From Eledone cirrhosa (Eukaryota), in the NCBI GenBank assembly GCA_964016885.1, contig OZ024740.1, positions 121,086,001 through 121,150,000 of the forward strand: a stretch of DNA of 64,000 nt, given 5' to 3'. Positions 1 to 64,000 of this stretch are shown here, piece by piece. The notes beneath the pieces are model-generated. The model saw only the letters and a program-made list of their open reading frames with translations. It was not told where the DNA came from and did no database searches. The translations under genes and the position numbers were made by a program. The first letter of the stretch is position 1; every line of letters starts with the position of its first letter.

Positions 1-61
1 TACACAGCTAAGTATTCTATAAGTCTCTAGCTGTGTCATTCTCGATAAAAGCACTGGATAT

Positions 62-104
62 GTAGTCCTGATGATTTCTAACGAGAATGAAACGCGTAGA
101 TTAC
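62..104 (+). ncRNA. Type I minimal hammerhead ribozyme, unit 1
   Basis: Stem I GTAGTC/GATTAC; CTGATGA 68-74; stem II TTCT-AACG-AGAA; GAAA 89-92; palindromic stem III ACGCGT; GTA cleavage triplet ending at 98; enclosed by perfect 16-bp inverted repeat 38-53/111-126. Confidence 0.88.
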
Positions 105-371
105 TTCCCTTGCTTTTATCGAGAATCTAATTGTAATACGTGACGTATTCTATTCTATAGCGATTAGGTCTTCAAAATGTTTATTATAAACATACAGAAT
201 ATTTTCGAATATTCTATGTCTATATTCACATATATATCGCTATTTCAGAGCATTTATTCCAATTTCTAATTTCTGCCGGACCGGCAACCGCTCTTTCAAA
301 CCAGTTCCTGTACACAGCTAAGTATTCTATAAGTCTCTAGCTGTGTCATTCTCGATAAAAGCACTGGATAT

Positions 372-414
372 GTAGTCCTGATGATTTCTAACGAGAATGA
401 AACGCGTAGATTAC
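372..414 (+). ncRNA. Type I hammerhead ribozyme, unit 2
   Basis: Same sequence as 62-104 shifted by 310. Confidence 0.88.
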
Positions 415-681
415 TTCCCTTGCTTTTATCGAGAATCTAATTGTAATACGTGACGTATTCTATTCTATAGCGATTAGGTCTTCAAAATGTTTATTATAAA
501 CATACAGAATATTTTCGAATATTCTATGTCTATATTCACATATATATCGCTATTTCAGAGCATTTATTCCAATTTCTAATTTCTGCCGGACCGGCAACCG
601 CTCTTTCAAACCAGTTCCTGTACACAGCTAAGTATTCTATAAGTCTCTAGCTGTGTCATTCTCGATAAAAGCACTGGATAT

Positions 682-724
682 GTAGTCCTGATGATTTCTA
701 ACGAGAATGAAACGCGTAGATTAC
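682..724 (+). ncRNA. Type I hammerhead ribozyme, unit 3
   Basis: Same sequence as 62-104 shifted by 620. Confidence 0.88.
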
Positions 725-844
725 TTCCCTTGCTTTTATCGAGAATCTAATTGTAATACGTGACGTATTCTATTCTATAGCGATTAGGTCTTCAAAATGT
801 TTATTATAAACATACAGAATATTTTCGAATATTCTATGTCTATA

Positions 845-882
<38 letters not shown>

Positions 883-3299: not shown

Positions 3300-3342
3300 G
3301 TCACTGAAGAGGTCACATAATGTGTGACGAAAGAACTCTGAC
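3300..3342 (+). ncRNA. Minimal hammerhead ribozyme in family A pseudo-LTR
   Basis: GTCA-CTGAAGA-G-GTCACA(TAATG)TGTGAC-GAAAG-AA-CTC-TGAC. Confidence 0.75.
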
Positions 3343-8073: not shown

Positions 8074-8446
8074 ATTATTGAAAGCCTCTGGATGTTTATT
8101 CTTTTTATTGGAGAGGGTAAGACAGTATGCTATAGAGTATACTATACATTCACAATTATTTAAAAATGTAATCGTAACATTCTGTATTAACATTTGTTAT
8201 TACTGTATACTGCCAATGTAATATGTACAGTATATATACAGTATAATTAATAAAAAAATACACATTTTGCCCCGCAAAAATTTCATTGCACTGTTTTGTT
8301 TTCTTTTTTGTATTTTTTGAAAATGTTATTTATTCATTATAAAAATTAAACGATAGTATTTTTATTATGGATGGGCCCAATTTATCACCTGACCAGCAAT
8401 ATTTTTACACCCAGTCCGCCACTGTGTGTGTATATATATATATGTA

Positions 8447-8701
8447 TACCAAAAACGTGGATTTGTCTTTGCGTGTAATTGTTCTCACGCATCACATAAC
8501 GACATACTATCTTCGTTTTTTCCGTTCATTGCCAGGGAACCTCTTCACGAACCAAAGTATCGTCTTCTTGTTTTCCTTCCCTCGCAACGGTTTTCGAAAT
8601 ATTTACTTCTGCGTTCACAGATTGTTTTTTTTTAGTTTCAGAAGATCGCGTGAATGGTGAAGGCAACAATTCTTTGCTTCAACTTTAATCTGTTATTTTA
8701 A
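8447..8701 (+). mobile_element. Solo pseudo-LTR fragment homologous to 62048-62300, with degenerate CAGAAGA-type HHR (8617-8693)
   Basis: Shares ACGAACCAAAGTATCGTCTTC and TAGTTTCAGAAGATC...ACTTTAATCTGTTATTTTAA; GAAA changed to GAAG. Confidence 0.8.
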
Positions 8702-25050: not shown

Positions 25051-25143
<93 letters not shown>

Positions 25144-25245
25144 TATTGAAGTTTCCCTTGAAAATAGAAAAAAAGTCATGGGAGTGAAGAGTGCTCTATG
25201 TAAGTACCAGAGCAAAATTTTATGTATAATAAACAATACAATATA

Positions 25246-25323
25246 ATTACCTCATTACCAGAGGTTTCCCGAATAAGACGAATACGAAAAAAACGTCCTC
25301 ATTCGTTCGTCGGACAAGGTAAT
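25246..25323 (-). ncRNA. Type I hammerhead-like motif with CCGACGA core
   Basis: 10-bp stem I ATTACCTTGT/ATGAGGTAAT; CCGACGA-A; stem II CGAATGAGGACG/CGTCTTATTCG; G-GAAA; stem III ACC-TCT-GGT; GTA triplet. Confidence 0.72.
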
Positions 25324-25746
25324 ATAAAACATAGTGAAATATTTGGAAAGTCTCCCCAAGAAATGCAAAAAATATATAAATAAAAGTAATGCAAGAGATA
25401 TATAAAAAAATATATAAAAAATATAAGGAAATATAGTTAGGTATGTGTATATGTATGTATATAGACTCACAAATGTACATATGTATGTATGTACAAATGC
25501 ATGTGTATGGTGAAAATGTGTGCGTAAGTATATATAAGAGGGCAAGTATATTTGTGTATATGTGACCACAAATACTGATATAATATGAGTTGAAAAAGAA
25601 AATGATAATATAGTTGACACGCATCCAGATACAGGTATTAAATACACATACGAGTATGAAAGCACGCGTATAAACACACACACACGCGCGGTCACATATA
25701 TGCGGAAGATAAAGAGGGAAGGGAGTGTAATAGTAAAAGGAAGTGT

Positions 25747-26633: not shown

Positions 26634-28733
26634 TTATGGAGGATAAGTATCTGAAAGTGAGTTAAGTTTATATGAGCTGGAAGGCATATGTGATTTCATG
26701 TGTGGGCAACTGGTGAAAATTTCTGTTTTTGTATTTAGGCAGGTTTTTGGTGATTTAAGGTTTTGTAAAATCCAATATTTTTCACTTATGCAGAGTGTGC
26801 ATCTTCTTGTTCCTCTTGCATATTCTTTAGATTGGTTCAAAATTGACCAATCCAATTTATATTGGATACCTTGGTCTTTCAAATCCCATATTCTGCTAGC
26901 CAGAGCTGTTGTGAATATTTTTTTGGATGTCGGAAATATGCGACATCTGAGTAATAACGTGTTTTTAATTTGTCTTGTGTCATACCCACATATCGTTCGC
27001 TGGTGGCTGGTTGGTTGTTGCTGATGGTTGTCACTTTAGCCGCATATACAATGGCTTTGGTGTTGCATTTATCTTGTAATGGGCATTCCCTTTTGACTCT
27101 ACAGGAGCAATTTTAATGTTCTCTGGGTGATTTCTTATTGATGATATAAGATTTAATAGGGGGACCGCAGGAGTAGCTAATTTTGACACAGTTTCTATTG
27201 AAGATCTTATAGTATCTATGTGTTCTAGGGAAATGTTTATCTAAGAGCTCTAGGAATGTTTTGCCTACATTAGTTTTAACTGCTAGAGAGTAGGAGGGTG
27301 TGAACCAGATTATTTTTCTTTTCCTATTATTATGTTTAAAAGAGTTAGTATTGTTGGGTATGTACTTAATCGGTTCGCTAAATCCACTATTTTGAAGGGC
27401 TTTATTATAGTAGGGGGATGCCTTATTGAAAATAGCTTCTACGGCTAATATTAGGGATAAGGTTTTTAAAAACTATAGGAGGATGGCAAGAGCCTTTATT
27501 TATATATTTTAAATTTTCATTAGGTTTATGGTATGGTTTATAAGAAGCAGTAGGCAAATCTAGGTTTATATCTAGAAAATTAACATTGGAAAGTTTAGTG
27601 TCAATAGTAATTTTAAAATTAAAACTAGCAAACGTTTTTATTAAGTCTTTCCTTAATCTATCTAAGATATGGCCTATGGTGGTATGGGAAAGTATTAGAC
27701 CATCGTCGCGATAAAGCCCAAAAATGTGGTTAGGGAATTTTTCTTTAAGTGTGTGTAGGAGGAATAGGTCGACTAAATCACACACATCAGCACTGTAAAA
27801 AGAGCCCATTGAGACATCGAATGGGCTCTCTGGGTTAGATATGTTTACCCAAGTGTCATTATCAGTAAATAGTAGAGTGTTTCTAGCGTGCAAGATGACA
27901 TTCTCTTCAATATCAGAGATATTGGTAAACTTTCTAGCGAAATTTAAGGCTTTCGCTAAAAGAGTCTGAGTGATAGACGGGTAGAAATCTACAATGCCAA
28001 ATTGGGTGAATCTAGAACTATTTTTATCTTTAATTTTATTTAACCAATGTACTACGGAAGAGCTATTTATCCATTGGAGGAATTTAGACTTACTTCTAAT
28101 GTGTGTGTTTATATTATTTAAAAATTGTTTGCTGGCAAGACCGATATCAGTCTTAGCAGGGTTGATTAATCTACAACTAGGACGATTAATAAAGTCAGGT
28201 TTGTGATCTTTAAGGGTGATATATTCATTACGTATAGCAACTTTTTCTGTCCTATTATCTATTTTTAAAGAACAAGCTAATTCTTTAGCTTCCTTATTTA
28301 TATTATGATACGTGTTTATATTAGCTATTTGGTATTTAGAGGTGATGTTATCTATTAAGAGTTGGTCATGTAAATTATTATTAACTTCATATAAGTTTTT
28401 AGTTTTGTCGGAGAAGATGAACTTATTTTTAGAAGATTTGAATATTGAAATATCATTAGATAGTTTAGATTGAAAAGGGTTAGAGTACTTACGAAAATTG
28501 ATATTGTTGATTAGATTAACTAAGTCTAGTTCAAAAGCGGTCATATCTTTTACTCTTTGCGGGTATTTATGAGTTTTGATATCAAAATGTTCCGTAGAAT
28601 CCGTGTTAAAGTGTCCATCGAGAATCAGAGCTTTCCATCTCATTCTTTTAACAACCTTCTCTACTTTGTCTATCAGCATTTTCGTGTAGGAAGTGTTAGA
28701 AGGTGTTGGGATATTCTTGATAGAGTAATCCAA
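26634..28733 (-). pseudogene. Frameshifted PLE RT / GIY-YIG ORF (436-aa open RT part 27423-28733)
   Basis: YSIKNIP..MRWKA, SDKT, LKDHK, DFYPSI, GLYRDDGL, VNFLD; downstream C..CPLQDKC and CTLCISEK...SCPH endonuclease motifs. Confidence 0.9.
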
Positions 28734-28967
28734 AGGGTATTTATCAATGTTCAGTATTGGTTTAAAATCCTATTGACTGAAGAGTGCTCGACTTTAAAAG
28801 GGCTGGAAGGTGCCAATCTCATAAACATGTAGAATCTGCTGCGATCATTCCCTTCGGAGCTGTATAAGTATTGAAGTTTCCGTTGAAAATTGAAAAGTCA
28901 TAGGAGTGAAGAGTGATCTATGTAAGTACCAGAGCAAAATTTAATGTATAATAAACAATACAATATA

Positions 28968-29046
28968 ATTACCTCATTACCAGAGGTTTTCCGAATAAGA
29001 CGAATACGAAAAAAAACGTCCTCATTCGTTCGTCGGACAAGGTAAT
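28968..29046 (-). ncRNA. Second copy of the CCGACGA hammerhead-like motif (upstream pseudo-LTR)
   Basis: As 25246-25323 but GGGAAA reads GGAAAA. Confidence 0.6.
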
Positions 29047-29949
29047 ATAAAACATAGTGAAATATTTGGAAAATCTCCTCAAGAAATGCAACTTTATTTT
29101 TAATTTTATTTTTATTTTTACTTCACATCCACCAGTAACCCCCCCCCCCCCCCCCTACTCTTCGATTCACTTACCTAATATCTTCACATTCCACATTTTA
29201 CTTCCCCATTTTCTTTCACTACCTGATTTCCCTAATTCACTTGCGTTTTCCACTCCATATATTCTGTTGTTTCGCAGCCGATTTTATATTTGTACTCATT
29301 TATTCATAAGGCTGCTTTATACTCTGTATCTATGTGTCTGAGTGTGCTTATGCGCGTATACGTTCTGTATATGTATACGAACGCCTCCGTATGTGCGCGT
29401 GCGTACGTGTATATATATGTGTGTGTATGTGTGTTTTTATATCTATGTTTTTACATCTATGTTTTTTACATTCTTATTTTCACGTGTGTGTGTAAGCGGG
29501 TGAATGTACGCGAATGTGTATGTATGTGTGTATATATGTATATGTATGTATGGGTGTGTATGTGTATGTGTATATATATATATATAGTCACGTACGTACG
29601 TGTGATTAGATATACATTGGGTGATATATATATATATACGTGCCTCTTGTGTATGTATGTACGCATGCATGCGCTTTTGTCTGTACGTATTTGTGTGTAT
29701 AAATATTTTTTTATAGATATATGTTTTTTATTGATATCTGTGTATGTACGTGCGTACCTATGTTTGTTTTCTTTTCTCTAGTGTTAATTGATTACTTTCT
29801 CTTTCATTTAAAAATGTTTTTCATTCTCATATACTGTTCAATTTGTATACATATATCGAGAATGACATTTCTTTTTACTATTACACTCCCTTCCCTCTTT
29901 ATTTTCCACATATAATGCGTGTGTGAGTGTGTATATATATATATTCACA

Positions 29950-35584: not shown

Positions 35585-37227
35585 GGCTTTGGTGGGGCCC
35601 TGATCAACTTGGATCAATCTAAGGCATTCGATAGGGTCGACCATGGTTACCTGGATGCGGTGCTAGCGGCGGCAGGCTTCGGACCCGTTTCCAGGGGCTG
35701 GATCAATGCCATGCACAGTAGCCGGCATGTGCTCTAGGGTCAAGGTGAACGGCTACCTCTCGGAGCCGTTTGAAATCGCGCGGTCCATCCGACAGGGGTG
35801 CCCTCTCTCCTCCCTTCTGTATGTAATGACTCTAGAGCCACTGCTGCGGAAGTTGGAATTGTTGCAGGGCATCCCGTTGGAACCGGGATTGCGGAAAGCG
35901 GTGTCGGCCTACGCCGACGACGTAACAGTAATGGTGTCTACGGCCTCGGAAATCGGGGCGATCGGCACCTTACTGGAGGAGTACGAAAGGTTTACAGGGG
36001 CTAAGCTGAACCGGGACAAGTCGATCGGTCTACAACTCGGCACGTGGAGGGGCAGATCGATGCCCTCCGATGGCGTCGTCTGGCGCTGGACGGAGGGCCC
36101 GGTGAAGTTGCTCGGGGTCTGGTTCGGACCAGACCTCCAGGTGGAGAAGAACTGGGGTGAGGTAACGAACAGGGTGTTTGCACTGACCCAGAAGTGGGCC
36201 GAGTGCAAACTGTCCCTGAAAGGTCGGGCGAAGGTGGCGAACACTTATATAGCGTCCGTCATCTACTATCGCCTGACCCTTGTGCCTTCCCCAAGGGAAA
36301 CGCTCGCCAAAATGGAGCGCACACTCATCCAATTCCTTTGGAAGAAGCGGGCTCCTATGGTGAGGAGATCCATCTGCTGTCAACACCCTTCGAAAGGAGG
36401 GCTGGGGTTGCCCTGGCTAATGATACGTAAACACGCATTAAGGCTACGGCACCTCCAGGTATTCCTCTCCGGTCAACCGGTTATCAGGTGCGACGACGCC
36501 CTCGGCCAACCTGTTCGGTAGGACATTCAGCCCGGGACCCATGGATAACTTCCAGAGGTCCCTGGCCTGGCAGTGCTACAGAAGGGCTCTGCCCGTTCGA
36601 GAAAGGCTCTACAGACACGGGCACCCGGGTCGAACAACTGCTGTCAAGTGTGGGACCGATCTGGTTGACCACCGAGTCTATTGTAACGATCAAGCCGCCT
36701 CCCCTCTTCAAAAACGAAGGAGAGGCGGTGTTTCTGTGCGTAATAGCCATGGCGAAAGAGGTTGTATGGTGGACGCGTCTGAAAGGACTGAGGTCAGACA
36801 CCTTTCTCTCTGGCCAACAACTGGTCCGTTTCTTCCGATATCATTTCGGTAGAAGGATCAGGATGGTGAGAGAGGTGCTGCACTCCAGCCGTTTTTACGA
36901 AAGATGGGTGAAAGTGGCGAGAATGGCTCGTGTGAATGGGCCTTCACTCTACATCAGACTATAGGTGAGGAAGATGAAAGACCAAGGGAGCACCCCTTCT
37001 CTGTGCTCCTGAGGAAAAGGGTTGCCATCTTTTTTTCGGGGGTGTGTGCGACCCCCCAAGGCGCCTCCTCTCTATTGAGGATTTTGTTATAAATTTTATT
37101 CTGTTATATTTTATTTTATTTTTATATTTTGTTATTGCCTCCTCCTTATTGAGGGCGCCTTGTTTTGTAAACTCCCCCCATTGTACTTGTCCCACTTTTG
37201 ATGCCCTGGTGGCAAATAAAAGAAACA
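35585..37227 (+). mobile_element. 5'-truncated, internally deleted Tx1/L1-type LINE with 17-bp TSD
   Basis: LDQSKAFDRV, RQGCPLS, AYADDV, LSLKGR, GGLGLP motifs; AATAAA at 3' end; TATCTATTTAGTTATCC at 35568-35584 and 37228-37244. Confidence 0.92.
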
Positions 37228-37962: not shown

Positions 37963-38207
37963 TTGCGAGGTTTTTTATATGAAATCGTGTGTCGAAACAG
38001 ATATTGTTATATTTGGGGAGGGTCATATTTGCGTAATATTGCCAGAATTAATAACAGAACACACTCACTGTTTGGTTGGTTTTCGCTTCTCGCTGTCTTT
38101 TATATATATATATCTGCGATCTAACTTACTCGGTCCTCAATGTTGCCATTGACTGACCGGTGGTCAAAAATAATACAGATACAATATAGACAAACACATA
38201 TATATAT

Positions 38208-38256
38208 AGTTTACATAAATCTTTCGTTGCACATCTGCAACATCGTCAGTGGTGTT
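38208..38256 (-). ncRNA. Minimal hammerhead motif in left-arm pseudo-LTR
   Basis: Mirror of 43532-43580. Confidence 0.65.
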
Positions 38257-38524
38257 ATATTCATTGTTCCTCCTGTTGTGTTGTATGTCTACGCCATTTT
38301 TTTGTTCAGTCTGTCTATATATTTATTTATTTATTTATTTGCTTGTTTGTTTATCTTATTTTATTTTGTCTTCTTTGCGCATGCGTTTGCGTGTGTGTAT
38401 AGTGTTATGTGTGATGTGTGACTAGTGTGTATAGTGTTGTGTCTGCTGGGTGACTAGTGTGTGTTTATGTGCTTGTGTATGTATTTATTTATCTTATTTT
38501 ATTTAATTTAATTTACTTATTTAT

Positions 38525-40897
38525 TTATACTTCTCTTAGGTCAGTGTTGTTTGTTTGGGTGTTGTTGTTGTTCCACTCATTCTTTCTGTTTAGCTTTGGT
38601 CTTCTAATTTCTATTTCACTGGCCTCTCTGATTTGCCTATCTGCTGGGTCATTCCTATGTTTAGATATTATTCTAATTTCTATGTTGTCTATGTTACCGT
38701 CATGATGTTGTCTAGCATGTTCGTATAGTACTGACCCGTTTTTTCGTCCTTTTAGTTCCCCCCAGTGTTGGTCTATCCTTTCACCTATGCTACGAGCTGT
38801 CTCACCTATGTATGTTGTTGTCGTGTTTCTGCAAGTACCCTCTGTACATCTTATGCTATAGACTACGTTTCTAGTTTTACAGTTTATCCGGGGGTTCACC
38901 TTACATATGATACATTTCCTATTGGTACAGTGGGTTTTCTTAAAAGGGTAGGTTTTGCTGATCAGGGATTTTATGGTGGTTCCTGGCTTTTCTACCACCT
39001 TTATTTTTAAGTGGGTCTTTCTCAGGGCCTTTCTACACTGGTTAGCTAATTTCCCTCCAGGGGTGGCGTCCACAAACATGACACTCTGATATCTCTGGTT
39101 GTCGTACCATGATGTGGCCTTCCCTATCTTATGTCTAGCCCTATCTAAGCTATTCCATGATTTGCTCCTGTATAGTGGGCAAATTCCTTTCATGTCCAGT
39201 TCTATGAGGGTCTTATACTTTTCCATGGCTCCTTCGTATACTCTGACTCTGTCTCTTTGGTTGTAGCCAGAGAACTGCATGCGGTTGATGAAGTGTTGGA
39301 TGTGTCCTTCCATTTCTGTTGGGTCGCACATGCTGGACACATTCTTCATCACTCGTACCAAATCTGCGATCAGAATATTAAACTTAGCACTACTGGACAT
39401 TGCTGAGTTTTTGAGTATCAGGTATTTGGAGGCCATGGGTTTAGCATAGTGTGAGTGGAGAATTTGGGCTCTCTCGTCTATAGTGTTAATCCAGAGTTCT
39501 GTGTCTAATACAGGTAGTCTATTGTTAGGGTGTTTGGAAGGGAAGTCTATAGTTACAGTTATACTCTGGTGTATGGAATTAGCTATCTGCTGGATGCTTT
39601 CCATCGTGCTACGTTCTAAATCAAACTTGTTAGTGCTCTCTAGTGGGGGTGTTCTTATAACTATATTGATATCGTCTACATAACGAGAGTACATGATGAG
39701 GTCTATGGAGCTTTCATTAAGGAGATCTTTAAGTCTCCTTTCCCACCATACCATGAAAAGGTTGGCAACATCGCCAGCTATGCTGACGCCGATGGCTGCT
39801 CCCTCATTTTGGGTGTAGATTTTCTCATTGAACTTAAATATGTGGCCCTTTAGGGTAGTTTTGATACTAGCCCCTATTGCATGTGCGACCATTTTTCTTA
39901 CCTGATCAGTGTTTTGGGGGGTCCGTATAGCTTTGGTCCACCCAATCCACCTTCCTATGGGAGTCTTTTTAGCCATTGAGGTTATGGTGGGGGGTCTACC
40001 TCTTATAGGTCTACTAGGGCAGAAACATCTAAGGTCATGGCTGTCTAGGTAGTCAGTGTCGTAGGTAAGTCTAAGTAGGAGGCCCAGTTCGTCTGTGTCG
40101 ACGTCGCAGAACTCCACCTCACTCTCAATGATCATCTCCACACATCTTTTCACAGCAAAATCAATGTTAATGGATGGGTACAGTGACACCACATCCATGC
40201 TGCCTATTATGCAGTTGGATAGGCTCCTGTTTTTGTTGCACTCACTGATTCTGCTGAGGAGGTCCTCTGTACTTTCACATACATCTGGGGACATCTTGAT
40301 TATGGGGCGTATAACCATTGAGAGGAAGTAGGAGATCCTGTAGTTGCTAGCTATATTAGCTCCGCATACAGGTCTTGTTGGTGGTCCTATTGTCGGGTCG
40401 TCGACTGTCTTGTGGTCTTTGCGGAGCCCATACAAGGGTGGTATGCCATTGTTAGACGCCTGGAAGTTGTTGGCAGTGCGTCTGCTTGGCTTTAGGATGT
40501 CAGTCCACATCATCATGTGAGCGTTGAGGATTTTTTCTCTCCCATCGTGTGTTAGTTGTGCAACTTCGCTCGTGTTGGTGATGTGGGGTTGCATTGCCTC
40601 GATGTAGTTCGGCATGCTATCTATTGACATCCTACCAGACTTATCTGTGGGTAGACACACTACCTCACCATCCCTTGTGCGCTGCTTGAGGCTAACCAAG
40701 CCTTCTACAGGTTTTATCCCAAGTTGTTGGGCCTCTGGTCTGCTCTGTCTCATAGTGTACCTGTCTACTACTTGTCTAATCTTATTTCTAGCTATGGTGA
40801 ACTGTGCCTCCGTCTCGTCATCTATTTGTTGTGGTATGCAAACTCTTTTATTAAAGGGTAACCTCGTAGGATAGATATTACCCATCTGACAAAACAT
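38525..40897 (-). CDS. PLE reverse transcriptase / GIY-YIG endonuclease, uninterrupted but N-terminally truncated (790 aa)
   Basis: DKSG, KDHK, DVVSLYPSI, GAAIG, YSRYVDD, LPVLD, CTNRKCIIC linker, VVY..C...C...YIGET...R...H...H. Confidence 0.93.
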   Translation of the reverse strand: MFCQMGNIYPTRLPFNKRVCIPQQIDDETEAQFTIARNKIRQVVDRYTMRQSRPEAQQLGIKPVEGLVSLKQRTRDGEVVCLPTDKSGRMSIDSMPNYIEAMQPHITNTSEVAQLTHDGREKILNAHMMMWTDILKPSRRTANNFQASNNGIPPLYGLRKDHKTVDDPTIGPPTRPVCGANIASNYRISYFLSMVIRPIIKMSPDVCESTEDLLSRISECNKNRSLSNCIIGSMDVVSLYPSINIDFAVKRCVEMIIESEVEFCDVDTDELGLLLRLTYDTDYLDSHDLRCFCPSRPIRGRPPTITSMAKKTPIGRWIGWTKAIRTPQNTDQVRKMVAHAIGASIKTTLKGHIFKFNEKIYTQNEGAAIGVSIAGDVANLFMVWWERRLKDLLNESSIDLIMYSRYVDDINIVIRTPPLESTNKFDLERSTMESIQQIANSIHQSITVTIDFPSKHPNNRLPVLDTELWINTIDERAQILHSHYAKPMASKYLILKNSAMSSSAKFNILIADLVRVMKNVSSMCDPTEMEGHIQHFINRMQFSGYNQRDRVRVYEGAMEKYKTLIELDMKGICPLYRSKSWNSLDRARHKIGKATSWYDNQRYQSVMFVDATPGGKLANQCRKALRKTHLKIKVVEKPGTTIKSLISKTYPFKKTHCTNRKCIICKVNPRINCKTRNVVYSIRCTEGTCRNTTTTYIGETARSIGERIDQHWGELKGRKNGSVLYEHARQHHDGNIDNIEIRIISKHRNDPADRQIREASEIEIRRPKLNRKNEWNNNNTQTNNTDLREV

Positions 40898-40902
40898 ATA
40901 AG

Positions 40903-43263
40903 ATGGGTAATATCTATCCTACGAGGTTACCCTTTAATAAAAGAGTTTGCATACCACAACAAATAGATGACGAGACGGAGGCACAGTTCACCATAGCTAG
41001 AAATAAGATTAGACAAGTAGTAGATAGGTACACTATGAGACAGAGCAGACCAGAGGCCCAACAACTTGGGATAAAACCTGTAGAAGGCTTGGTTAGCCTC
41101 AAGCAGCGCACAAGGGATGGTGAGGTAGTGTGTCTACCCACAGATAAGTCTGGTAGGATGTCAATAGATAGCATGCCGAACTACATCGAGGCAATGCAAC
41201 CCCACATCACCAACACGAGCGAAGTTGCACAACTAACACACGATGGGAGAGAAAAAATCCTCAACGCTCACATGATGATGTGGACTGACATCCTAAAGCC
41301 AAGCAGACGCACTGCCAACAACTTCCAGGCGTCTAACAATGGCATACCACCCTTGTATGGGCTCCGCAAAGACCACAAGACAGTCGACGACCCGACAATA
41401 GGACCACCAACAAGACCTGTATGCGGAGCTAATATAGCTAGCAACTACAGGATCTCCTACTTCCTCTCAATGGTTATACGCCCCATAATCAAGATGTCCC
41501 CAGATGTATGTGAAAGTACAGAGGACCTCCTCAGCAGAATCAGTGAGTGCAACAAAAACAGGAGCCTATCCAACTGCATAATAGGCAGCATGGATGTGGT
41601 GTCACTGTACCCATCCATTAACATTGATTTTGCTGTGAAAAGATGTGTGGAGATGATCATTGAGAGTGAGGTGGAGTTCTGCGACGTCGACACAGACGAA
41701 CTGGGCCTCCTACTTAGACTTACCTACGACACTGACTACCTAGACAGCCATGACCTTAGATGTTTCTGCCCTAGTAGACCTATAAGAGGTAGACCCCCCA
41801 CCATAACCTCAATGGCTAAAAAGACTCCCATAGGAAGGTGGATTGGGTGGACCAAAGCTATACGGACCCCCCAAAACACTGATCAGGTAAGAAAAATGGT
41901 CGCACATGCAATAGGGGCTAGTATCAAAACTACCCTAAAGGGCCACATATTTAAGTTCAATGAGAAAATCTACACCCAAAATGAGGGAGCAGCCATCGGC
42001 GTCAGCATAGCTGGCGATGTTGCCAACCTTTTCATGGTATGGTGGGAAAGGAGACTTAAAGATCTCCTTAATGAAAGCTCCATAGACCTCATCATGTACT
42101 CTCGTTATGTAGACGATATCAATATAGTTATAAGAACACCTCCACTAGAGAGCACTAACAAGTTTGATTTAGAACGTAGCACGATGGAAAGCATCCAGCA
42201 GATAGCTAATTCCATACACCAGAGTATAACTGTAACTATAGACTTCCCTTCCAAACACCCTAACAATAGACTACCTGTATTAGACACAGAACTCTGGATT
42301 AACACTATAGACGAGAGAGCCCAAATTCTCCACTCACACTATGCTAAACCCATGGCCTCCAAATACCTGATACTCAAAAACTCAGCAATGTCCAGTAGTG
42401 CTAAGTTTAATATTCTGATCGCAGATTTGGTACGAGTGATGAAGAATGTGTCCAGCATGTGCGACCCAACAGAAATGGAAGGACACATCCAACACTTCAT
42501 CAACCGCATGCAGTTCTCTGGCTACAACCAAAGAGACAGAGTCAGAGTATACGAAGGAGCCATGGAAAAGTATAAGACCCTCATAGAACTGGACATGAAA
42601 GGAATTTGCCCACTATACAGGAGCAAATCATGGAATAGCTTAGATAGGGCTAGACATAAGATAGGGAAGGCCACATCATGGTACGACAACCAGAGATATC
42701 AGAGTGTCATGTTTGTGGACGCCACCCCTGGAGGGAAATTAGCTAACCAGTGTAGAAAGGCCCTGAGAAAGACCCACTTAAAAATAAAGGTGGTAGAAAA
42801 GCCAGGAACCACCATAAAATCCCTGATCAGCAAAACCTACCCTTTTAAGAAAACCCACTGTACCAATAGGAAATGTATCATATGTAAGGTGAACCCCCGG
42901 ATAAACTGTAAAACTAGAAACGTAGTCTATAGCATAAGATGTACAGAGGGTACTTGCAGAAACACGACAACAACATACATAGGTGAGACAGCTCGTAGCA
43001 TAGGTGAAAGGATAGACCAACACTGGGGGGAACTAAAAGGACGAAAAAACGGGTCAGTACTATACGAACATGCTAGACAACATCATGACGGTAACATAGA
43101 CAACATAGAAATTAGAATAATATCTAAACATAGGAATGACCCAGCAGATAGGCAAATCAGAGAGGCCAGTGAAATAGAAATTAGAAGACCAAAGCTAAAC
43201 AGAAAGAATGAGTGGAACAACAACAACACCCAAACAAACAACACTGACCTAAGAGAAGTATAA
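40903..43263 (+). CDS. PLE reverse transcriptase / GIY-YIG endonuclease, mirror copy (786 aa)
   Basis: Same motifs; frame stays open upstream through the spacer (DKTYK-MGNIYP). Confidence 0.93.
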   Translation: MGNIYPTRLPFNKRVCIPQQIDDETEAQFTIARNKIRQVVDRYTMRQSRPEAQQLGIKPVEGLVSLKQRTRDGEVVCLPTDKSGRMSIDSMPNYIEAMQPHITNTSEVAQLTHDGREKILNAHMMMWTDILKPSRRTANNFQASNNGIPPLYGLRKDHKTVDDPTIGPPTRPVCGANIASNYRISYFLSMVIRPIIKMSPDVCESTEDLLSRISECNKNRSLSNCIIGSMDVVSLYPSINIDFAVKRCVEMIIESEVEFCDVDTDELGLLLRLTYDTDYLDSHDLRCFCPSRPIRGRPPTITSMAKKTPIGRWIGWTKAIRTPQNTDQVRKMVAHAIGASIKTTLKGHIFKFNEKIYTQNEGAAIGVSIAGDVANLFMVWWERRLKDLLNESSIDLIMYSRYVDDINIVIRTPPLESTNKFDLERSTMESIQQIANSIHQSITVTIDFPSKHPNNRLPVLDTELWINTIDERAQILHSHYAKPMASKYLILKNSAMSSSAKFNILIADLVRVMKNVSSMCDPTEMEGHIQHFINRMQFSGYNQRDRVRVYEGAMEKYKTLIELDMKGICPLYRSKSWNSLDRARHKIGKATSWYDNQRYQSVMFVDATPGGKLANQCRKALRKTHLKIKVVEKPGTTIKSLISKTYPFKKTHCTNRKCIICKVNPRINCKTRNVVYSIRCTEGTCRNTTTTYIGETARSIGERIDQHWGELKGRKNGSVLYEHARQHHDGNIDNIEIRIISKHRNDPADRQIREASEIEIRRPKLNRKNEWNNNNTQTNNTDLREV

Positions 43264-43531
43264 ATAAATAAGTAAATTAAATTAAATAAAATAAGATAAA
43301 TAAATACATACACAAGCACATAAACACACACTAGTCACCCAGCAGACACAACACTATACACACTAGTCACACATCACACATAACACTATACACACACGCA
43401 AACGCATGCGCAAAGAAGACAAAATAAAATAAGATAAACAAACAAGCAAATAAATAAATAAATAAATATATAGACAGACTGAACAAAAAAATGGCGTAGA
43501 CATACAACACAACAGGAGGAACAATGAATAT

Positions 43532-43580
43532 AACACCACTGACGATGTTGCAGATGTGCAACGAAAGATTTATGTAAACT
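43532..43580 (+). ncRNA. Minimal hammerhead motif in right-arm pseudo-LTR
   Basis: CTGACGA 43539-43545; T; stem II GTTGCA/TGCAAC; GAAAGATTTA; stem I weak (CA/TG then internal loop); same position as the family A HHR. Confidence 0.65.
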
Positions 43581-43887
43581 ATATATATATGTGTTTGTCT
43601 ATATTGTATCTGTATTATTTTTGACCACCGGTCAGTCAATGGCAACATTGAGGACCGAGTAAGTTAGATCGCAGATATATATATATAAAAGACAGCGAGA
43701 AGCGAAAACCAACCAAACAGTGAGTGTGTTCTGTTATTAATTCTGGCAATATTACGCAAATATGACCCTCCCCAAATATAACAATATATATATATACATA
43801 CATACATATCAATCTGGCTGTCTATTCTTATCAATCCACCTCTCTCTTCATATATATACATATACATATATATATACATACACACAC

Positions 43888-52150: not shown

Positions 52151-55100
52151 GCATAAGCCCTTCTTCAGGCGAAAAGTGGGTGGGAAGAGAGTTCCGAGGG
52201 TGTGTAGGGGAGTGGAAGAGAGACATGTAGAAAAAAGGGGTGGAGAGGAAAGGGAGGAAAAACGTTGGAAGGGGTACACATAAAAATAAAAAAAATAAAA
52301 ATAAACATGAAGATAAACAAGTGGTGGAAGGATGTGGGGCGTGTAGGTGTGGTGGCGCGTGGAGTGGGTAGAGGGAGGTGGGGTGTTCGAGCGGGGAGGG
52401 GTTAGTGGAGTGGGGAGGGGGATGGCATTCCGGAGGCTGAGTGTGTATATATGTGGGGGTACGCACGTGTGTGTGGTGCTTATACCTTTTGTGGATGTAC
52501 GTGGCGTGGTTCGAAAAACATTTTTTTCAGTGTATGTCCGTGGGTAAGTTCCTAAGGTAGTTCCGTCGAGGGTGTGAAGAGCTGCCGGATATTTTCCATG
52601 TGAGGGAGTAGATAGTGGGAACGATGGCCAATGGTGTGTAATCCGTGGTTGTGTTGGTCGGAAGAGGGGAGATGTGGGGTGCGCGCGCAACAGGAAGTGG
52701 TCAGAGGATCAAGGCAGGATGAGAGTAGAGGAGAATGACAGGTGGAGAGGGCTGTGTGTCTGTGTGTGCGGAGAAGTGGTCAGATGGTCAAGGCATAGCA
52801 GCAGTAGAGGAGGTTGGCAGGTGGAGGTTGGCAGTGTGTCAGTGTGTGGGGAGGTGCGGTGGACAGGGGAGAGGATGGGTAGGTGTGAACGGTGGAGCGG
52901 GGAAGGGGTCATGCGGGGAGAAGGGTGTGTATTAGTAGAGATGTTAGTGGGATGTGTGTGTGTGTGTGAGAAGGGGTATAGGTGGAGCGGGGAGAGGGGA
53001 GAGGGAGAGATAATGTGTGGGGGGAGGTGGAGGGAGTGTAGTGTAGTGGTGAGTGTGTGCGTGTTTGGATGAGTGTTTGTGTGTGGTGAAGGGGGTGTTA
53101 GTGGGTGTTAGTATACTGGTGGTGGGCAAAGGGTTGAATGCGGGTGTGTTATTGGGGGTCAGTGGTGGTAAGGTGTGTAGAGTTGGTGGTGTAAGTGGGT
53201 GTGGGGGTGGGGCGTGGGGTGGGGGTGTTCGTGTGCGTGGGTTCTGGGGGATGTTAGTGGTATTAGTTGTGGGGTGGTGGGAGTTGATGTGTAGGTGAGG
53301 GTTAGTGGTGGTAGTAGTGTATGTGGATAGTGGGAGTGCGTGTATATATGTACCGGTGGGTCTGTGCGTCATAGGGGGAGGGGTGGGGATGTTAGTATTG
53401 CTTGTTGGGGGAGGGTAGTCGGGGGTGGGGTGGGTTTTTAGTATTGTTAGTTGTGGGGTGGTCCAAGGGGGTGGGCGGTGAAAAGGAGGAGTGTGTTAGT
53501 GGTGTTAGTGGGGGATATGTGTGTGTAGGGGGTGGCAGGGCGGTCGAAGGCTAAAGGAACAGGGTTGGGGAGTTCAGGCCAGGGGGAGTGTGGGTCTGTA
53601 GGGTGAAGATGGTGCGTTGTTCGACCCTGAGGCGGGTGGTGGGTGTTGCGTGGCATTGGAGTAGGCCACAGACTGTGAGGTGGTGCGCGGGATGTCCAGG
53701 GGATCCAAAGTGGCGGGCGATGGGGGAACTCCCGCGGAGACGAATATCCCGGAGGTGTTCTGTGAAACGGTCCGCCAGGCGACGTCCAGTCTGTCGGACG
53801 TAGGTTGCGCTGCACACCGTGCATTGAAATCGATAGACTAGGTTGGAGGAGGTGCAGCGGAAAGCGTGCCGGACAGAGAGGGAGTGGCCGTTGGGACCCT
53901 GGAAGGTGGTGGTGTTGGTGATGTGGGCGCAGGTGTTGCAACGAGGCCTGGAACAGGGAAGGAAACCGGGGAGGAAAGAAGAGCGTGGGTTGGGGTGTAG
54001 GGAGCTGCGGACGAGGAGGTTGCGGAGATGGCATGCGCGTTTGAAGGAGGGGAGTTGTGGGGATAGGAAGATGTGGGATGCGGGGGGGGGGTCGGACTGG
54101 AGGCGTCGGAAGGAGTGGAGGATGGTACGGTGGAGGGGTAGGGTGGAGGTGTTATATGTGCTGGGGAAGGGGATAGGGTGGGTGGGCGTGCGGTCGCGTG
54201 GTGTGAGGGTGGTGGAGCGGTGGACAGCACGGGCGCGAGTGAGGGCGCTGTGGACGAGGGAGGGGAGAGGGAGTAACTTCTGCGGATGAAATCGCTGACT
54301 ATGGAAAGGGCTTGGGACTCAAAGTCAGCATCTCGGCTTCAGAGGCGGCGGATCCTGAGGAGTTGGGAGTTGGGAATAGTGTTTAGTGTGTATAGGGTGG
54401 GAGGAGGTGAAGTCGAGGTAGGAGTAGCAGTCGGTAGGTTTGAAGAAGGCGAAGGTGACGAGGGAGTGATGGGAGGGATCGATAGCGACGGAAAGGTCTA
54501 AGAAGTGGACATGGGTGGTGGAGATAGAGGTGGTGAAGTAGAGGGAGGGGTGGAAGGAGCAGAAGAATGATTGAAACGAGACGAGCTATTCTAGGGTGAG
54601 GGTCGTAGCTCCGATACAGTCTTGATGTAACGACCATACAGTTCGGGTGTGGGGCCGGTGTACTGGGCAAAGATTTGGGTCTCAACATGGCCAACGAAAA
54701 CGTGGCATAGTTTGGGCACATTCTTGTGCTCATCGCTACCCCCGTGACCTGTTGGTAAAACTCAGCCGAGAAGGAGAAACAGTTGAGGGTGAGGACCAGC
54801 TCGGTGAAGCGAAGGAGGGTGCGGACGATGAGGTGGGAAGCGGTGGCGCGGAGGAGGGAGGAGGAGACAAGGTGTTGGATGGTGGAGGAAACTTGTTGTT
54901 GGTAGAGTGGTGTGGGACCGGAGGGTAGAGGGCGGTAGAAGAGCGGGTTACGGAGCTGCCTGAGGGCTTCAGCCGTGTAGAGGTCAGCGCGCCACACCAC
55001 CACGGCGTCTCCCTTGTCCGCCGGTTTGATGACGATGTCATCTCGGCTACGGAGGGAGCGGAGAGCGAGGAGTTCGCTCTGTGAGAGGTTATAGCGTTTT

Positions 55101-55509
55101 GAATGGTGGCGGAAGTCGAAGTGATTTACTGTGCTACGCCAGGCGTCGACGAACGCGTCCAGGGTGCTAAATTGCCCTGGAGCCGGCGTCCAAGACGATG
55201 GTCGTAGGCCCAGAGCGAGAAACGGGTCTGGCGCATTCGGAGCCGGTGGGTGGAGGGGGAAGCGGAGGTGGAGGTGTGGAAGTGTAGTCGGATGCCGAGG
55301 GGGATGAGGTGGAGGTGGAGGCAGCGGCTGAGGAAATGCATGTGGCTGGAGTGCCCGGTTTTGGCGAAGAGATGGTAGGAGAGTTAAGAATAAACATGAA
55401 GATAAACAAGTGGTGGAAGGGTGCGGAGCGTGTAGGGGTGGTGGCGGGTGGAGTGGGGAGAGGGAGGCGGAGTGTAGGTCGGTGTGTGTGTGCGTGTAGA
55501 TGGGGAGGG
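52151..55509 (-). mobile_element. Decayed GC-rich PLE (Neptune-like): RT and GIY-YIG remnants, long C/A-rich 3' region, truncated HHR
   Basis: HFLSRCL..LIP.G, IKPADKGDAVVVW, GVAM.TRM.P.YA, PCSRPRCNTC, YVRQTGRRLADRFTEH..PIARHF; about 80-bp direct repeat 52300-52380 / 55389-55468; CTGAAGAAGGGCTTATGC cut off at 52151. Confidence 0.88.
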
Positions 55510-55971
55510 ATATATATATATATATATAAGTCTTCTCAACTCTCCCCGACCGGCAGGATATCTACCACACACTTTTGGGTGGGTGACTGATGTCTTCTCT
55601 TGTGAAAATGGGTATAGCTTCCATTATGTAAAATCTCCCCATTTTGTCTCATTTCTCCCCCTTTTGGGGCACGCTTTTTCATGGTACTCCCCGTTTGGGA
55701 TTTAGAGGTTGGCAGGTCTGATATATATCCATCCAAATATCACGCACACACACAAACACATCACACACCCACACACACAGACACACATACAGATACACAT
55801 ACGCACATGCACACACACACAGAGACGCACGGACACACACACATACACAACTCCAAGTTGTACGCCACTTGATTCCATCATTTCCTCAACTAATTGTTGA
55901 TAATTTAAAAATCATATATAATGAGTATATTTGTTCGTTTGTACAGAAAAATACATACACACACACATAAA

Positions 55972-60447: not shown

Positions 60448-60619
60448 TAATAATAAGAAACTTGAAGACGAAAATCCAAAGAGGACTCGATAAGGATAAA
60501 TATATATCAAATATATAAGAATCATAGAGCATAACGACCATTCCACTTATTACAATGAAGCTCTTGCTCGAAGTTAATTTGTCGATAAGGTAGCATATAC
60601 AGAGCACGAAAATAGACCT

Positions 60620-62300
60620 AGAAGAAATAGATCCCGTCGCATTTGTTTATATAACCCACCATATAATATGGAGGTGGCCACATCATTAACTAAGATCTTT
60701 CTTTCCCTTATTACGAAGCATTTTCCCCCTACACATAAATATAGTAACATTTTTAATAGAAATACTATTAAAATGTCTTACTCTACGACTCCTAACCTTG
60801 CACATAACATCACAGCTTCAAATTTAGCTAAACTACCTAGCCGTAGGAACACGTGCAACCCTGTAGTTAGTACTAACTGTAATTGTAGGAATCGGGCTGA
60901 TTGCCCCCTATCCGGGAAATGCCTCTCTAGTAACATTGTGTACAAATGTAAGGTTGTAACACCCACGTCCCATAGGGTTAACCGCCAATAGTTTCAAGCA
61001 GCGTCTTTACATGCATACCCATTCTTTTCGTTACCCTCTAAGAAGGAATATGACGTCACTTTCAGCTTATATCTGGAGTCTAAAAGACAACCACACCCAT
61101 TATAAGTTACACTGGGAGATCCTAGCTAGGGCTAGATCGTATAACGGAAATAAAAGACCATGTGACCTCTGCGCCGCTGAGGCCCTGGAAATACTCTACG
61201 CCACAGACCACATCTTAAACAAAAAATCTGAGGCAATTTCGGCTTGTAAACATAAATTGCACAAAATTTTCCTGTATTACAGCCCCACGTTATACCCTAA
61301 CGGATAGTACGATCTATACGTGGATATTTTACGTCTTGATGTGGGAGATAAGTATATGTTTTGTTTATTCCTTTACTTATTTGCATAGGTAAGTATATAT
61401 TACCCGTATGTTTTGTGAAGATGCGTATACCTTCTCGTACGTATATTTGCTTGTTATGGCGTATACTTTTATATTTCTGGTACATAGGGTTTGGCTATGT
61501 GTATACGGGAGTTTTGCGTCTGTGTGAGTATGCAGGTTCGTACGTATGGTGGGTGTGTGTATATGTGTACTTCTTGTTTTAGTTGACTTACGTCTCCGAA
61601 CGTATGTGTATTTATATGTAGGTATGTGTGTGCGCTTGTTATATACGTATTTATTTATTCTTATACGTTTATATAATTATTTATTTATTTGTATACACGC
61701 ATACACACACACACATATTTATATGTGCGGGGTTTTGTATACCTATGGTAAGGTTTTGTGTATGCTTGTGTATGTACGTATTTGTTTGCGTGTATGTATT
61801 TATTTATTTCAATTACTTCTGTATTGTATTTATTTACTTTGTTCTTAACTCTGTAGCGGAGATTCATTTGGTCTCCTAGTCAGAATTTTAGTCTACGACT
61901 TCTGCTATACCATTTACGTGGTTTTGTCTTGGCGTGCTATTGTTCCCCACACTCCACATATGACGTATTATCTTCGTTTTTTCGTTCATTGCCAGAGAAC
62001 GTCTCTATGCACCACCTAAGAGAACATTAGTCTACGACCTCTTTTATACCATAAACGTAGTTCTGTCTTTCGCGTAATTGTTTTTCACCGCTCCTATTAA
62101 TGACGTATTATTCGTTTTTTCCCGTTCTTTGCCAGCGAACGTTACCACGAACCAAAGTATCGTCTTCCTGTCTTCCTCCAGTTGCATCGTTTTTTGAAAT
62201 ATCCAGTTCTGCGTTTACAGATTGACTTCGTTAGTTTCAGAAGATCCCGTTAAGGGTGAAAGCAGCGATTCTTTGCTTAAACTTTAATCTGTTATTTTAA
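60620..62300 (+). mobile_element. 5'-truncated PLE (same lineage as the 25-29 kb element): frameshifted GIY-YIG region 60620-61307 plus pseudo-LTR
   Basis: KHFP..HKY..IFNRNTIKMSYS, CNCRNRADCPLSGKC, TSLSAYIWSLK, CDLC..E, CKH; about 139-bp tandem duplication 61889-62143. Confidence 0.88.
62217..62292 (+). ncRNA. Type I hammerhead-like motif with CAGAAGA core
   Basis: AGTTT/AAACT plus ACAGATTGA/TTAATCTGT stem I; CAGAAGA 62238-62244; CCC/GGG stem II; GAAA 62258-62261; stem III AGCAG/TTGCT. Confidence 0.68.
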
Positions 62301-62340
62301 TAAATATAGTTTAACTATATAAAGTTTTAACTATATATAT

Positions 62341-62460: not shown

Positions 62461-62558
<98 letters not shown>

Positions 62559-62580
62559 GGAGGTCATATAACTGTCCATG

Positions 62581-62646
62581 CATTAATAAATTGCTCCGAA
62601 GAATCCAAACCTCGGTTTGGAGGAAACAGCTGTAAGCACAATAATG
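62581..62646 (+). ncRNA. Type I hammerhead-like motif with CCGAAGA core upstream of an intact PLE ORF
   Basis: TGCT/AGCA stem I; CCGAAGA-A; stem II TCCAAAC/GTTTGGA; G-GAAA; palindromic stem III ACAGCTGT; GTA triplet ending at 62634. Confidence 0.78.
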
Positions 62647-62887
62647 TTTTGAACAGTTCTTTGATTCTTATATTTCATATAACTGCTCTGTAAATCATCT
62701 GATGTTTTTACATTGAGCTACTTAACTTACTGGTAATAAGGTAGTAATACATTACTGCCTACCACTATTTAGGGTGTGTGTAAAATACTTACAACTGCTT
62801 AAGGTTTTGTGTTTACATAACCATAAATAGTATAACTAATACTATTAACTGCTCCATATCGTTGAGCTGACATATAATATTGCCAAT

Positions 62888-64000
62888 ATGCTAATCAAAG
62901 ACCAACTCCCCATGTCAACCAAGAACATACCAATACCATCCAGGAATACATATGAGAAATTGCTGATCAACAGTGTAAATTCATTTATCAATAGAGTGAG
63001 ATGGAGGACATTCCATTATGATAGAAACAAATCTAACAACTTGAATAATACTAACAATTTTGACTCCTTCGGCTTTAAAACCTTTAAAAGCCCCCCTCAT
63101 AACACTCTACTTAACTCCTTTGAAAATGACCTAGTTAAACTAGTTAAGAACATTAAATACAATAAGCACCATATTAGAAGCAACACCTTCTTAAACAAAC
63201 TTAACACTTCTATTAGTGGATTCAAAACTAGTAATAAAATTATTGTACACGCAGATAAAACTAATAACATATACAGCCTAGATTATATTACTTATAGAAA
63301 GTTTATATATAATGAACTACATAAAAGCTACAAAAAAACCACCTTGAAAAACTTAGAAGATATTAATGTAGAGGGTTATAATATAGTGTCTAAACTAGGA
63401 CTACAGAGGCATACACAACCTTTCACTCCGAACCCCCCTAGATTCTCTCTGAAGGACCATAAGGAGAACTTCATCAGCAACCCCACGATAAGACTTATCT
63501 GCCCTTCCAAGTCCGACATTGGTATTATCAGCAAGAAGATTTTGGATAAAATCATCCCACAAATTAAACACAAGATACACCTTAAACAATGGGGAAATAC
63601 GGGTGAAGTAATTGAATGGTTTAAGGATATCAAGAATAATAAGAACAACAAATTTATTCAATTTGATATCAATTCATACTACACCTCTATTTCCCCTATC
63701 CTATTAAATAAGGCACTTATCATGGCCATGACCAATAGCGACCTGACTAGAGCCCAGGTTGATGTCATCCTTGCGGCCCGTAAAACCATAATCACCTTCG
63801 AGGACCAACTATGGACACGCAAGGATACGCACAACAACTTCGACATAACCATGGGATCTAGTGACTCGGCGCAGGTCACTGATTTGGTCGGCCTATACCT
63901 CCTCAATGAAATCCATAAAGACCTCCCTTACCTCAACGGTGGTTTGTACCGCGATGATGCACTTCTACTCATAGAATATAAAAAATTTAATATAGAAAGA
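62888..64000 (+). CDS. PLE reverse transcriptase, open to window end (371 codons; absent from ORF track, probably because no stop lies in the window)
   Basis: Manual translation MLIKDQLPMSTKNIPIPS...RVRWRT...ADKT...LKDHK...QFDINSYYTSI...TMGSSDSA...GGLYRDDAL with no stop; homologous to 27423-28733. Confidence 0.92.
   Translation, partial: MLIKDQLPMSTKNIPIPSRNTYEKLLINSVNSFINRVRWRTFHYDRNKSNNLNNTNNFDSFGFKTFKSPPHNTLLNSFENDLVKLVKNIKYNKHHIRSNTFLNKLNTSISGFKTSNKIIVHADKTNNIYSLDYITYRKFIYNELHKSYKKTTLKNLEDINVEGYNIVSKLGLQRHTQPFTPNPPRFSLKDHKENFISNPTIRLICPSKSDIGIISKKILDKIIPQIKHKIHLKQWGNTGEVIEWFKDIKNNKNNKFIQFDINSYYTSISPILLNKALIMAMTNSDLTRAQVDVILAARKTIITFEDQLWTRKDTHNNFDITMGSSDSAQVTDLVGLYLLNEIHKDLPYLNGGLYRDDALLLIEYKKFNIER

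What the first reader, a model, noticed from the sequence alone, without database searches (positions are those of the whole stretch)
25246..25323. Non-canonical CCGANGA core paired with an A.G mismatch, shared by two divergent PLE families
Seen: CCGACGA-A...G-GAAA here (CCGACGA also in the 28968 copy) and CCGAAGA-A...G-GAAA at 62596, in pseudo-LTRs with no other evident similarity. Both elements encode the same GLYRDD-type RT. Established: U4 belongs to the conserved CUGANGA core, and 10.1-11.1 is usually a Watson-Crick pair. Inference: a lineage-specific ribozyme variant with co-occurring substitutions rather than decay.
Basis: partly seen in the sequence, partly recalled or inferred. Interest (0 to 1): 0.75.

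Follow-up and report, generated by a model that had tools for sequence, protein, structure and literature searches.

The report
Transposon hammerheads with relaxed core U4
Three families of Penelope-type jumping genes in this animal genome carry hammerhead (self-cutting RNA) motifs in which one normally fixed core letter became C or A and was copied into thousands of places; the A.G mismatch does not travel with the C, so these are likely slowed, tolerated ribozymes rather than one compensated variant, and cutting is untested.

Summary
The motifs are real: type I hammerheads in pseudo-LTRs of Hydra-clade Penelope-like elements. C4 is inherited, not decay, but the proposed C4 + A.G lineage variant fails. 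In the 25313 family, 2,138 genome matches have U4 and 1,348 have C4, and A10.1/G11.1 is kept with either letter. In the 62596 family C4 is near-fixed (95 of 100 listed) while 10.1/11.1 varies (U-A, C.A, A.A, A.G). The two RTs are 35% identical and not sisters (AU p = 2e-7); each has a U4 sister family. A third Hydra family in this window (62238) has A4 in about 16,000 matches. So position 4 left U separately at least twice, likely three times, while the other core letters stayed. Best reading: slowed, tolerated ribozymes in elements likely copied from uncut RNA. U4C is known from a viroid; I found no paper on family-wide C4 or A4 in these elements, but one key paper was not held. No RNA evidence. 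The scan has noted C4 and A4 cores before, in this and other genomes. New variant of a known kind.

The parts
25246..25323 (-). Family 1 type I hammerhead in the 3' pseudo-LTR: C3 25313, C4 25312, A10.1 25306, G11.1 25269, G12 25268, A17 25256; predicted cut between 25256 and 25255
25142..25360 (-). 3' pseudo-LTR of the family 1 element, ending in (TA)n
   Evidence: 94.5% identical to 28867-29083
26640..28769 (-). Family 1 Hydra-clade RT/endonuclease ORF; open for 448 codons (27426-28769), then broken by frameshifts
   Evidence: 89% DNA identity to full-length copy L303
28867..29083 (-). 5' pseudo-LTR of the family 1 element; its hammerhead (28968-29046) has C4 and a private G12A change at 28990
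60533..62321 (+). 5'-truncated family 3 Hydra-clade element (end of ORF, 3' UTR, pseudo-LTR)
   Evidence: 94.7% identical to full-length copy L294
62233..62283 (+). Family 3 type I hammerhead fold with A4: C3 62238, core CAGAAGA, U10.1.U11.1, 3-bp stem II, 5-bp stem III, CUU site
62556..62845 (+). 5' pseudo-LTR of the family 2 element
   Evidence: 100% identical over 290 bp to the 3' copy just beyond the window in L086
62592..62638 (+). Family 2 type I hammerhead: C3 62596, C4 62597, A10.1 62603, G11.1 62622, palindromic stem III, A17 62634
62849..64000 (+). Family 2 Hydra-clade ORF, open; continues beyond the window (858 codons stop to stop)

Best explanation
These are hammerhead motifs in the pseudo-LTRs of Hydra-clade Penelope-like elements whose core position 4 reads C or A in whole subfamilies while the other core letters and the stems are kept, and they likely still cut, but slowly. 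Shown: C4 or A4 was inherited by thousands of copies; it is not tied to A10.1.G11.1; families 1 and 2 are not sisters and each has a U4 sister family. Inferred: fast self-cleavage is not needed to copy the element, so a change that slows cutting costs little and can fix in a master copy, or revert, as in the youngest family 1 subfamilies. Inferred: weak selection for some cutting (family 2 likely as a dimer through its palindromic stem III, and probably helped by the element's protein) keeps C3, G5, A6, G8, A9 and GAAA. The A.G pair is likely one more tolerated state of a position that is often mismatched in this clade.
For: Family counts: family 1 U4 2,138 / C4 1,348; family 2 6,495 matches with the core left free, first 100: C4 95, U4 5, A6 and A9 100, C3 and G5 98, G8 95, while N7 and 10.1 vary by subfamily (my tally); family 3 16,113 matches, A4 in 100 of 100 listed, 227 non-A4 matches with a similar pattern. 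Sisters with U4: family 4 (3,915 matches, 100 of 100 listed U4), families 5 and 8. Tree: fam1+fam4 100/99, fam2+fam5/7 100/100, fam1+fam2 rejected, p-AU 1.7e-7. Outgroup: 56 of 58 distinct motifs in 51 of 77 metagenome loci have U4. Family 3 copies fetched for other reasons differ at 33 recurrent sites in about 250 nt upstream and at none within the hammerhead. U4C lowers in vitro activity yet allows viroid infectivity (PMC3088659). Hammerhead mutants did not block insertion by a purified PLE protein, and cleavage needed the protein (PMC11167929).
Against: No cleavage or RNA data; no run on record as RNA was listed. In a type III hammerhead all U-turn single and double mutants other than the C3/G8 swap had low activity (PMC9901934), so A4 in particular may be dead, not slow. 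Covariation within family 2 does not exceed shuffles (245 of 500). Conservation of the family 3 motif could come from another function of the pseudo-LTR end or from homogenisation, since the 100 nt downstream are about as conserved (1.8% against 1.3-1.5%). A few family 2 copies carry G8C (3 of 100, two of them one inverted pair). ViennaRNA gives family 3 stem I a probability near 0 with either letter at position 4. The fam3+fam8 pairing is weak (83/52).
Confidence: 0.6

Rival explanations
1. The fold is kept but no longer cuts; it serves as a handle for the element's own protein or as part of the reverse-transcription start region.
For: U-turn mutants have low activity and no second-site rescue (PMC9901934); hammerhead cleavage was dispensable for PLE insertion in vitro and no reads ended at the cut site (PMC11167929); family 3 combines A4, U.U, a 3-bp stem II and a CUU site and is the most abundant family counted here; loops are as conserved as stems in family 3.
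Against: A mere handle would not need G5, G8, G12 and U16.1 in seven divergent host families whose stems differ completely; family 1 went back to U4 in its youngest, intact subfamilies; U4C keeps activity in a viroid.
Confidence: 0.22
2. Slowing is selected: C4 or A4 tunes cleavage down so that full-length RNA survives, in family 3 through an alternative fold in which position 4 pairs with 11.1.
For: Repeated changes at the same position; family 2 kept C4 (a CpG site) while its protein diverged to roughly 60-86% identity by segment; in family 3 the A4-U11.1/C3-G12 pairing has probability 0.23-0.71 and vanishes with U4.
Against: A U4 family is as abundant as families 1 and 2 (3,915); family 1 expanded most with U4; the 4-11.1 pairing has probability at most 0.07 in families 1 and 2 and cannot form in old family 2 subfamilies (C4 with A11.1).
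Confidence: 0.11
3. One reading: one lineage-specific, fully active variant in which C4 and A10.1.G11.1 compensate each other.
For: Both window motifs and the youngest family 2 subfamily carry both changes; no A.G was seen in 58 metagenome motifs or 26 published Hydra rows.
Against: A.G with U4 in 36 of 105 family 1 scanner hits, C4 with U-A in 688 matches and with C.A in family 2; families not sisters; C4 with G-C or U.U in two metagenome loci; no rescue of U-turn mutants in a pairwise scan.
Confidence: 0.05
4. Decay of dead copies after insertion.
For: The family 1 window copy is frameshifted and its 5' hammerhead has G12A.
Against: C4 and A4 are shared by thousands of dispersed copies and by intact, very young elements; mutation pressure at CpG runs C to T, the other way.
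Confidence: 0.02

Closest known systems
Hydra-clade Penelope-like elements and their hammerheads (Craig et al. 2021, PMC8557442; passages, section 11, File S1 Hydra sheet and File S2 read)
   Same: RW[KR], DKT and CxCX5C motifs, GLYRDD, C-terminal endonuclease region, (TA)n insertion, type I hammerhead in the pseudo-LTR, frequent mismatch at 10.1/11.1, short palindromic stem III.
   Different: All 26 Hydra rows in File S2 have U4 and none has A.G; their core descriptor was cuganga, so such variants may have been missed. Five probe strings from these families were absent from the supplement.
Minimal hammerheads of metazoan PLEs (Cervera and De la Pena 2014, PMC4209133; parts 1-2 of 4 read, supplements not seen)
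   Same: Position in pseudo-LTRs, long stem II, unstable stem III, low expected activity, known family-wide core variant (U3-A8).
   Different: They report conserved G10.1-C11.1 with an extra base; no position 4 variant in the text read.
Natural U4C hammerhead of a viroid (Ambros and Flores 1998; not held, known only through PMC3088659, section 8 and passages)
   Same: Same substitution; reduced in vitro activity but enough in vivo.
   Different: One viroid variant, not fixed in thousands of genomic copies; no A4 equivalent in the text read.
CYGANGA-descriptor hammerhead candidates from deep-sea viromes (PMC13481778; passages)
   Same: C accepted and observed at position 4.
   Different: Descriptor demands G10.1-C11.1, excludes A4, no retroelement context; I saw no test of C4 forms in the passages.

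Membership tests
Hydra clade of PLEs | RWK-type N-terminal motif | tested here: met
   RWK in family 1, RWR in families 2 and 3
Hydra clade of PLEs | DKG changed to DKT | tested here: met
   DKT in all three
Hydra clade of PLEs | CxCX5C linker before a C-terminal GIY-YIG-type endonuclease | tested here: met
   Linker followed by a Y[VI]G motif in all three; Pfam gave no family hit
Hydra clade of PLEs | Insertion into (TA)n, pseudo-LTRs, inverted or tandem arrangement | tested here: met
Hydra clade of PLEs | Groups with published Hydra RTs in a tree; CCHH motif absent | not tested
   Published sequences were only read (GLYRDD in Hydra-1_Amil, Hydra-2_Amil), not aligned
Type I hammerhead ribozyme | Three stems around C3, G5, A6, G8, A9, G12-A14, A15.1-U16.1, H17 | tested here: met
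Type I hammerhead ribozyme | U4 in the CUGANGA core | tested here: not met
   C4 at 25312 and 62597, A4 at 62239; U4 in 61% of family 1 matches
Type I hammerhead ribozyme | Watson-Crick pair at 10.1-11.1 | tested here: not met
   A.G in families 1 and 2, U.U in family 3; mismatch common in the clade
Type I hammerhead ribozyme | Site-specific self-cleavage | not testable with these tools
   No kinetics; only contig data available

The most novel reading that the evidence does not exclude
Penelope-like elements repeatedly evolve hammerheads that are tuned down or switched off at U4 (C4, A4) because uncut RNA is the transposition template; the 16,000-match A4 family either cuts with a core thought unworkable, through help from the element's protein, or is a ribozyme turned into a non-catalytic protein handle.
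Probability: 0.25. Interest if true: 0.72.

Novelty: new variant of a known kind. Interest (0 to 1): 0.45.

Why it matters
What PLE hammerheads are for is open: one in vitro study found cleavage dispensable for insertion. This genome offers matched natural pairs, U4 and C4 subfamilies of one family with the same A.G pair, and C4 or A4 families beside U4 sister families, that make the question directly testable. It also shows that CUGANGA-based searches miss well over 20,000 motifs in one genome. It is not a new kind of system, and the coupled variant first proposed is not there.

Tried and rejected
Rfam: no hammerhead hit among the 150 listed window matches or in four elements. First metagenome scan with a single protein found no relative. 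No RNA holder listed; contig layings cannot show ends or expression. A general switch pairing position 4 with 11.1, suggested by short-fragment folds, was rejected for families 1 and 2 and stays possible only for family 3. 'Non-U4 gives more copies' rejected by family 4 and by family 1. Reading the A as the known extra base before a C-G pair rejected: it breaks stem II in family 1, and the A.G columns align with U-A and C.A in family 2. Within-family covariation test not significant. My first family 1 pattern (97 of 100 C4) selected one subfamily and was misleading. The invariance figure is partly built in by the search patterns and its U4 clusters by my choosing U4 loci, so I rely. The idea that G11.1-G12-A13 opposite G8-A9-A10.1 forms three sheared G.A pairs is recalled, only search listings were seen, and it is not used. 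The AU test for families 1+2+3 together did not finish. No hammerhead was found in 23 of 77 metagenome loci or for host families 7 and 9.

Full report
Observation. The flagged stretch is a type I hammerhead fold on the minus strand with core CCGACGA and A10.1 opposite G11.1. A second copy 3.7 kb away has the same core and a private G12A change. The motif at 62596 has CCGAAGA and A.G. The two pseudo-LTRs show no BLAST similarity; their RTs share GLYRDD and 35% identity. My scanner gives 9 motifs in the window against 1 in 30 shuffles in total.

What the elements are. All three families discussed here have RW[KR], DKT and CxCX5C, the marks of the Hydra clade of Penelope-like elements (PMC8557442, section 11). 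The genome has 3.0 Gb; an octopus-like host is my inference from the likeness to the listed Hydra-1_Obim protein and was not pursued. The family 1 copy in the window is frameshifted. The family 2 copy has an open 858-codon frame and identical pseudo-LTRs, so it is very recent.

Family 1. A narrow pattern gave 97 of 100 listed copies with C4, but it picked one subfamily. Broader patterns give 2,138 matches with U4 and 1,348 with C4. With the core left free, the first 100 of 2,646 matches are 50 C, 49 U, 1 A at position 4 and A at 10.1 in all 100 (my tally). All 105 scanner hits in fetched loci have A.G, 36 with U4 and 69 with C4 (loci were chosen by pattern and overlapping loci count twice). 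U4 and C4 form discrete subfamilies: the most diverged group has U4 (6.5% from its majority, 15 copies), C4 groups 4-5%, and the two least diverged groups have U4 (2.8-3.8%) and lie nearest a C4 group (crude ages from small samples). The copies with the longest open frames (687-719 codons) carry U4. The likely history is U to C to U with A.G throughout. Contigs of independent runs show both letters at 25312 (24-63% of summed depth with the U form in three runs; the fourth run gave no cover). Matches are not element counts, since one insertion can hold two or more motifs.

Family 2. 3,280 matches to the first pattern, 99 of 100 listed C4. With the core free, 6,495 matches; first 100: C4 95, U4 5; 10.1 A 65, C 18, U 17; N7 A 78, U 17, G 3, C 2 (my tally). 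U4 totals 183 scattered matches, as CpG decay would give. Older subfamilies have C4 with a U-A pair (688 matches with U10.1; U-A read); others have C.A, A.A or U.G. So C4 likely came before A.G here, the reverse of family 1. Stem III stays self-complementary across subfamilies (59 of 60 cells paired), but covariation does not beat shuffles.

Family 3, not in the finding. 357 bases upstream of the family 2 motif lies a hammerhead fold with core CAGAAGA. It has 16,113 matches, A4 in 100 of 100 listed; 227 matches to a similar pattern carry C, G or U about evenly. Among copies fetched for other reasons, 33 sites vary recurrently in about 250 nt upstream and none within the motif, though the downstream 100 nt are about as conserved.

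Origins. In an RT tree of 27 rows (12 host, 15 of 77 metagenome loci chosen to span the 89-row tree; two host rows dropped for short cover), family 1 groups with family 4 (100/99), family 2 with families 5 and 7 (100/100), family 3 weakly with family 8 (83/52); families 1+2 as one clade are rejected (p-AU 1.7e-7). Family 4 has U4 in 100 of 100 listed of 3,915 matches; families 5 and 8 have U4 in all but one copy read. Of 24 motif clusters printed from 1.07 Mb of host DNA, only those of families 1, 2 and 3 have non-U4. In 77 metagenome loci with related RTs, 51 held a motif; 56 of 58 distinct motifs have U4, 23 have U.U and none A.G. The two C4 cases have G-C plus an extra A (L175, behind a DKG-type Penelope RT) and U.U (L223). 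Position 4 therefore left U separately in families 1 and 2, and likely again in family 3.

Mechanism. U4C lowers activity in vitro yet supports viroid infection (PMC3088659, citing a paper not held). U10.1.U11.1 is a known natural mismatch and 14 of 26 published Hydra rows have it. A pairwise scan of a type III hammerhead found low activity for U-turn mutants and no rescue but the C3/G8 swap (PMC9901934, passages). A purified PLE protein inserted RNA with dead hammerheads, and cutting needed the protein (PMC11167929, passages). Together these fit slowed ribozymes under weak selection (0.6), ahead of a non-cutting handle (0.22), selected slowing (0.11), a compensated variant (0.05) and decay (0.02). 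The family 2 stem III cofolds as a dimer (-13.1 kcal/mol); the family 1 one does not.

Novelty. Eight literature searches showed no report of family-wide C4 or A4 hammerheads in PLEs; C4 appears in a viroid variant and in a CYGANGA descriptor (PMC13481778, passages). Lunse et al. 2017, the paper most likely to list such variants, was not held (seen only through passages of PMC6765202), and supplements of PMC4209133 and PMC3088659 were not seen; both bear on this claim. Also consulted without effect: bioRxiv 10.64898/2026.07.22.740005 (part 1 of 5), PMC10085705, PMC7151607, PMC6155905, PMC3376415 (passages). Earlier unreviewed notes of this scan report C4 and A4 cores in this genome and C4 in others; I saw them after reaching my reading, and they are not independent support.

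Verdict. Real, inherited core variants of known PLE hammerheads; the coupling claim is refuted; the relaxed position 4, and A4 above all, deserves a cleavage assay. Interest 0.45.

Noticed in passing
window 37987-43801: Perfect inverted repeat, arms of 2,901 nt with 13 nt between, each holding a 797-codon open RT/endonuclease frame of another PLE-type family (YVDD); the two frames start head to head.
   Followed up: no
window 1-857 and L088: 310-bp tandem retrozyme-like array with canonical CUGAUGA core and a U10.1.U11.1 mismatch; continues upstream of the window.
   Followed up: partly
window 3304 (+), 45746 (-), 6996 (-), 7456 (+), 7317 (-): Further hammerhead motifs with U4; those at 3304 and 45746 lie near relatives of the 797-codon family.
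   Followed up: partly
window 8445-8701: Old, decayed family 3 end that still reads A at position 4.
   Followed up: partly
L351 (G000:C1:154825000-154832000): Five family 2 hammerheads (C4, U10.1.G11.1) spaced about 1 kb apart with no ORF hit, like a retrozyme array derived from a C4 element.
   Followed up: no
L343:3304-4501 and L313: Another Hydra-type family whose U4 hammerhead has, by eye, a stem II region of about 95 nt.
   Followed up: no
G000:C1:9979137, 9979637, 26463021: Family 2 copies with G8C, possibly a small subfamily that spread with a broken C3-G8 pair.
   Followed up: no
L174:2399 and L208:2102: Metagenome Hydra-type elements with the U3-A8 core swap.
   Followed up: no
L175:2167: C4 hammerhead at the end of a DKG-type Penelope element in another organism, so C4 is not limited to the Hydra clade.
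   Followed up: partly
window 53551-55561 (-) and 35667-36521 (-): Remnants of a DKG-type Penelope-like element and of a LINE-type RT.
   Followed up: no
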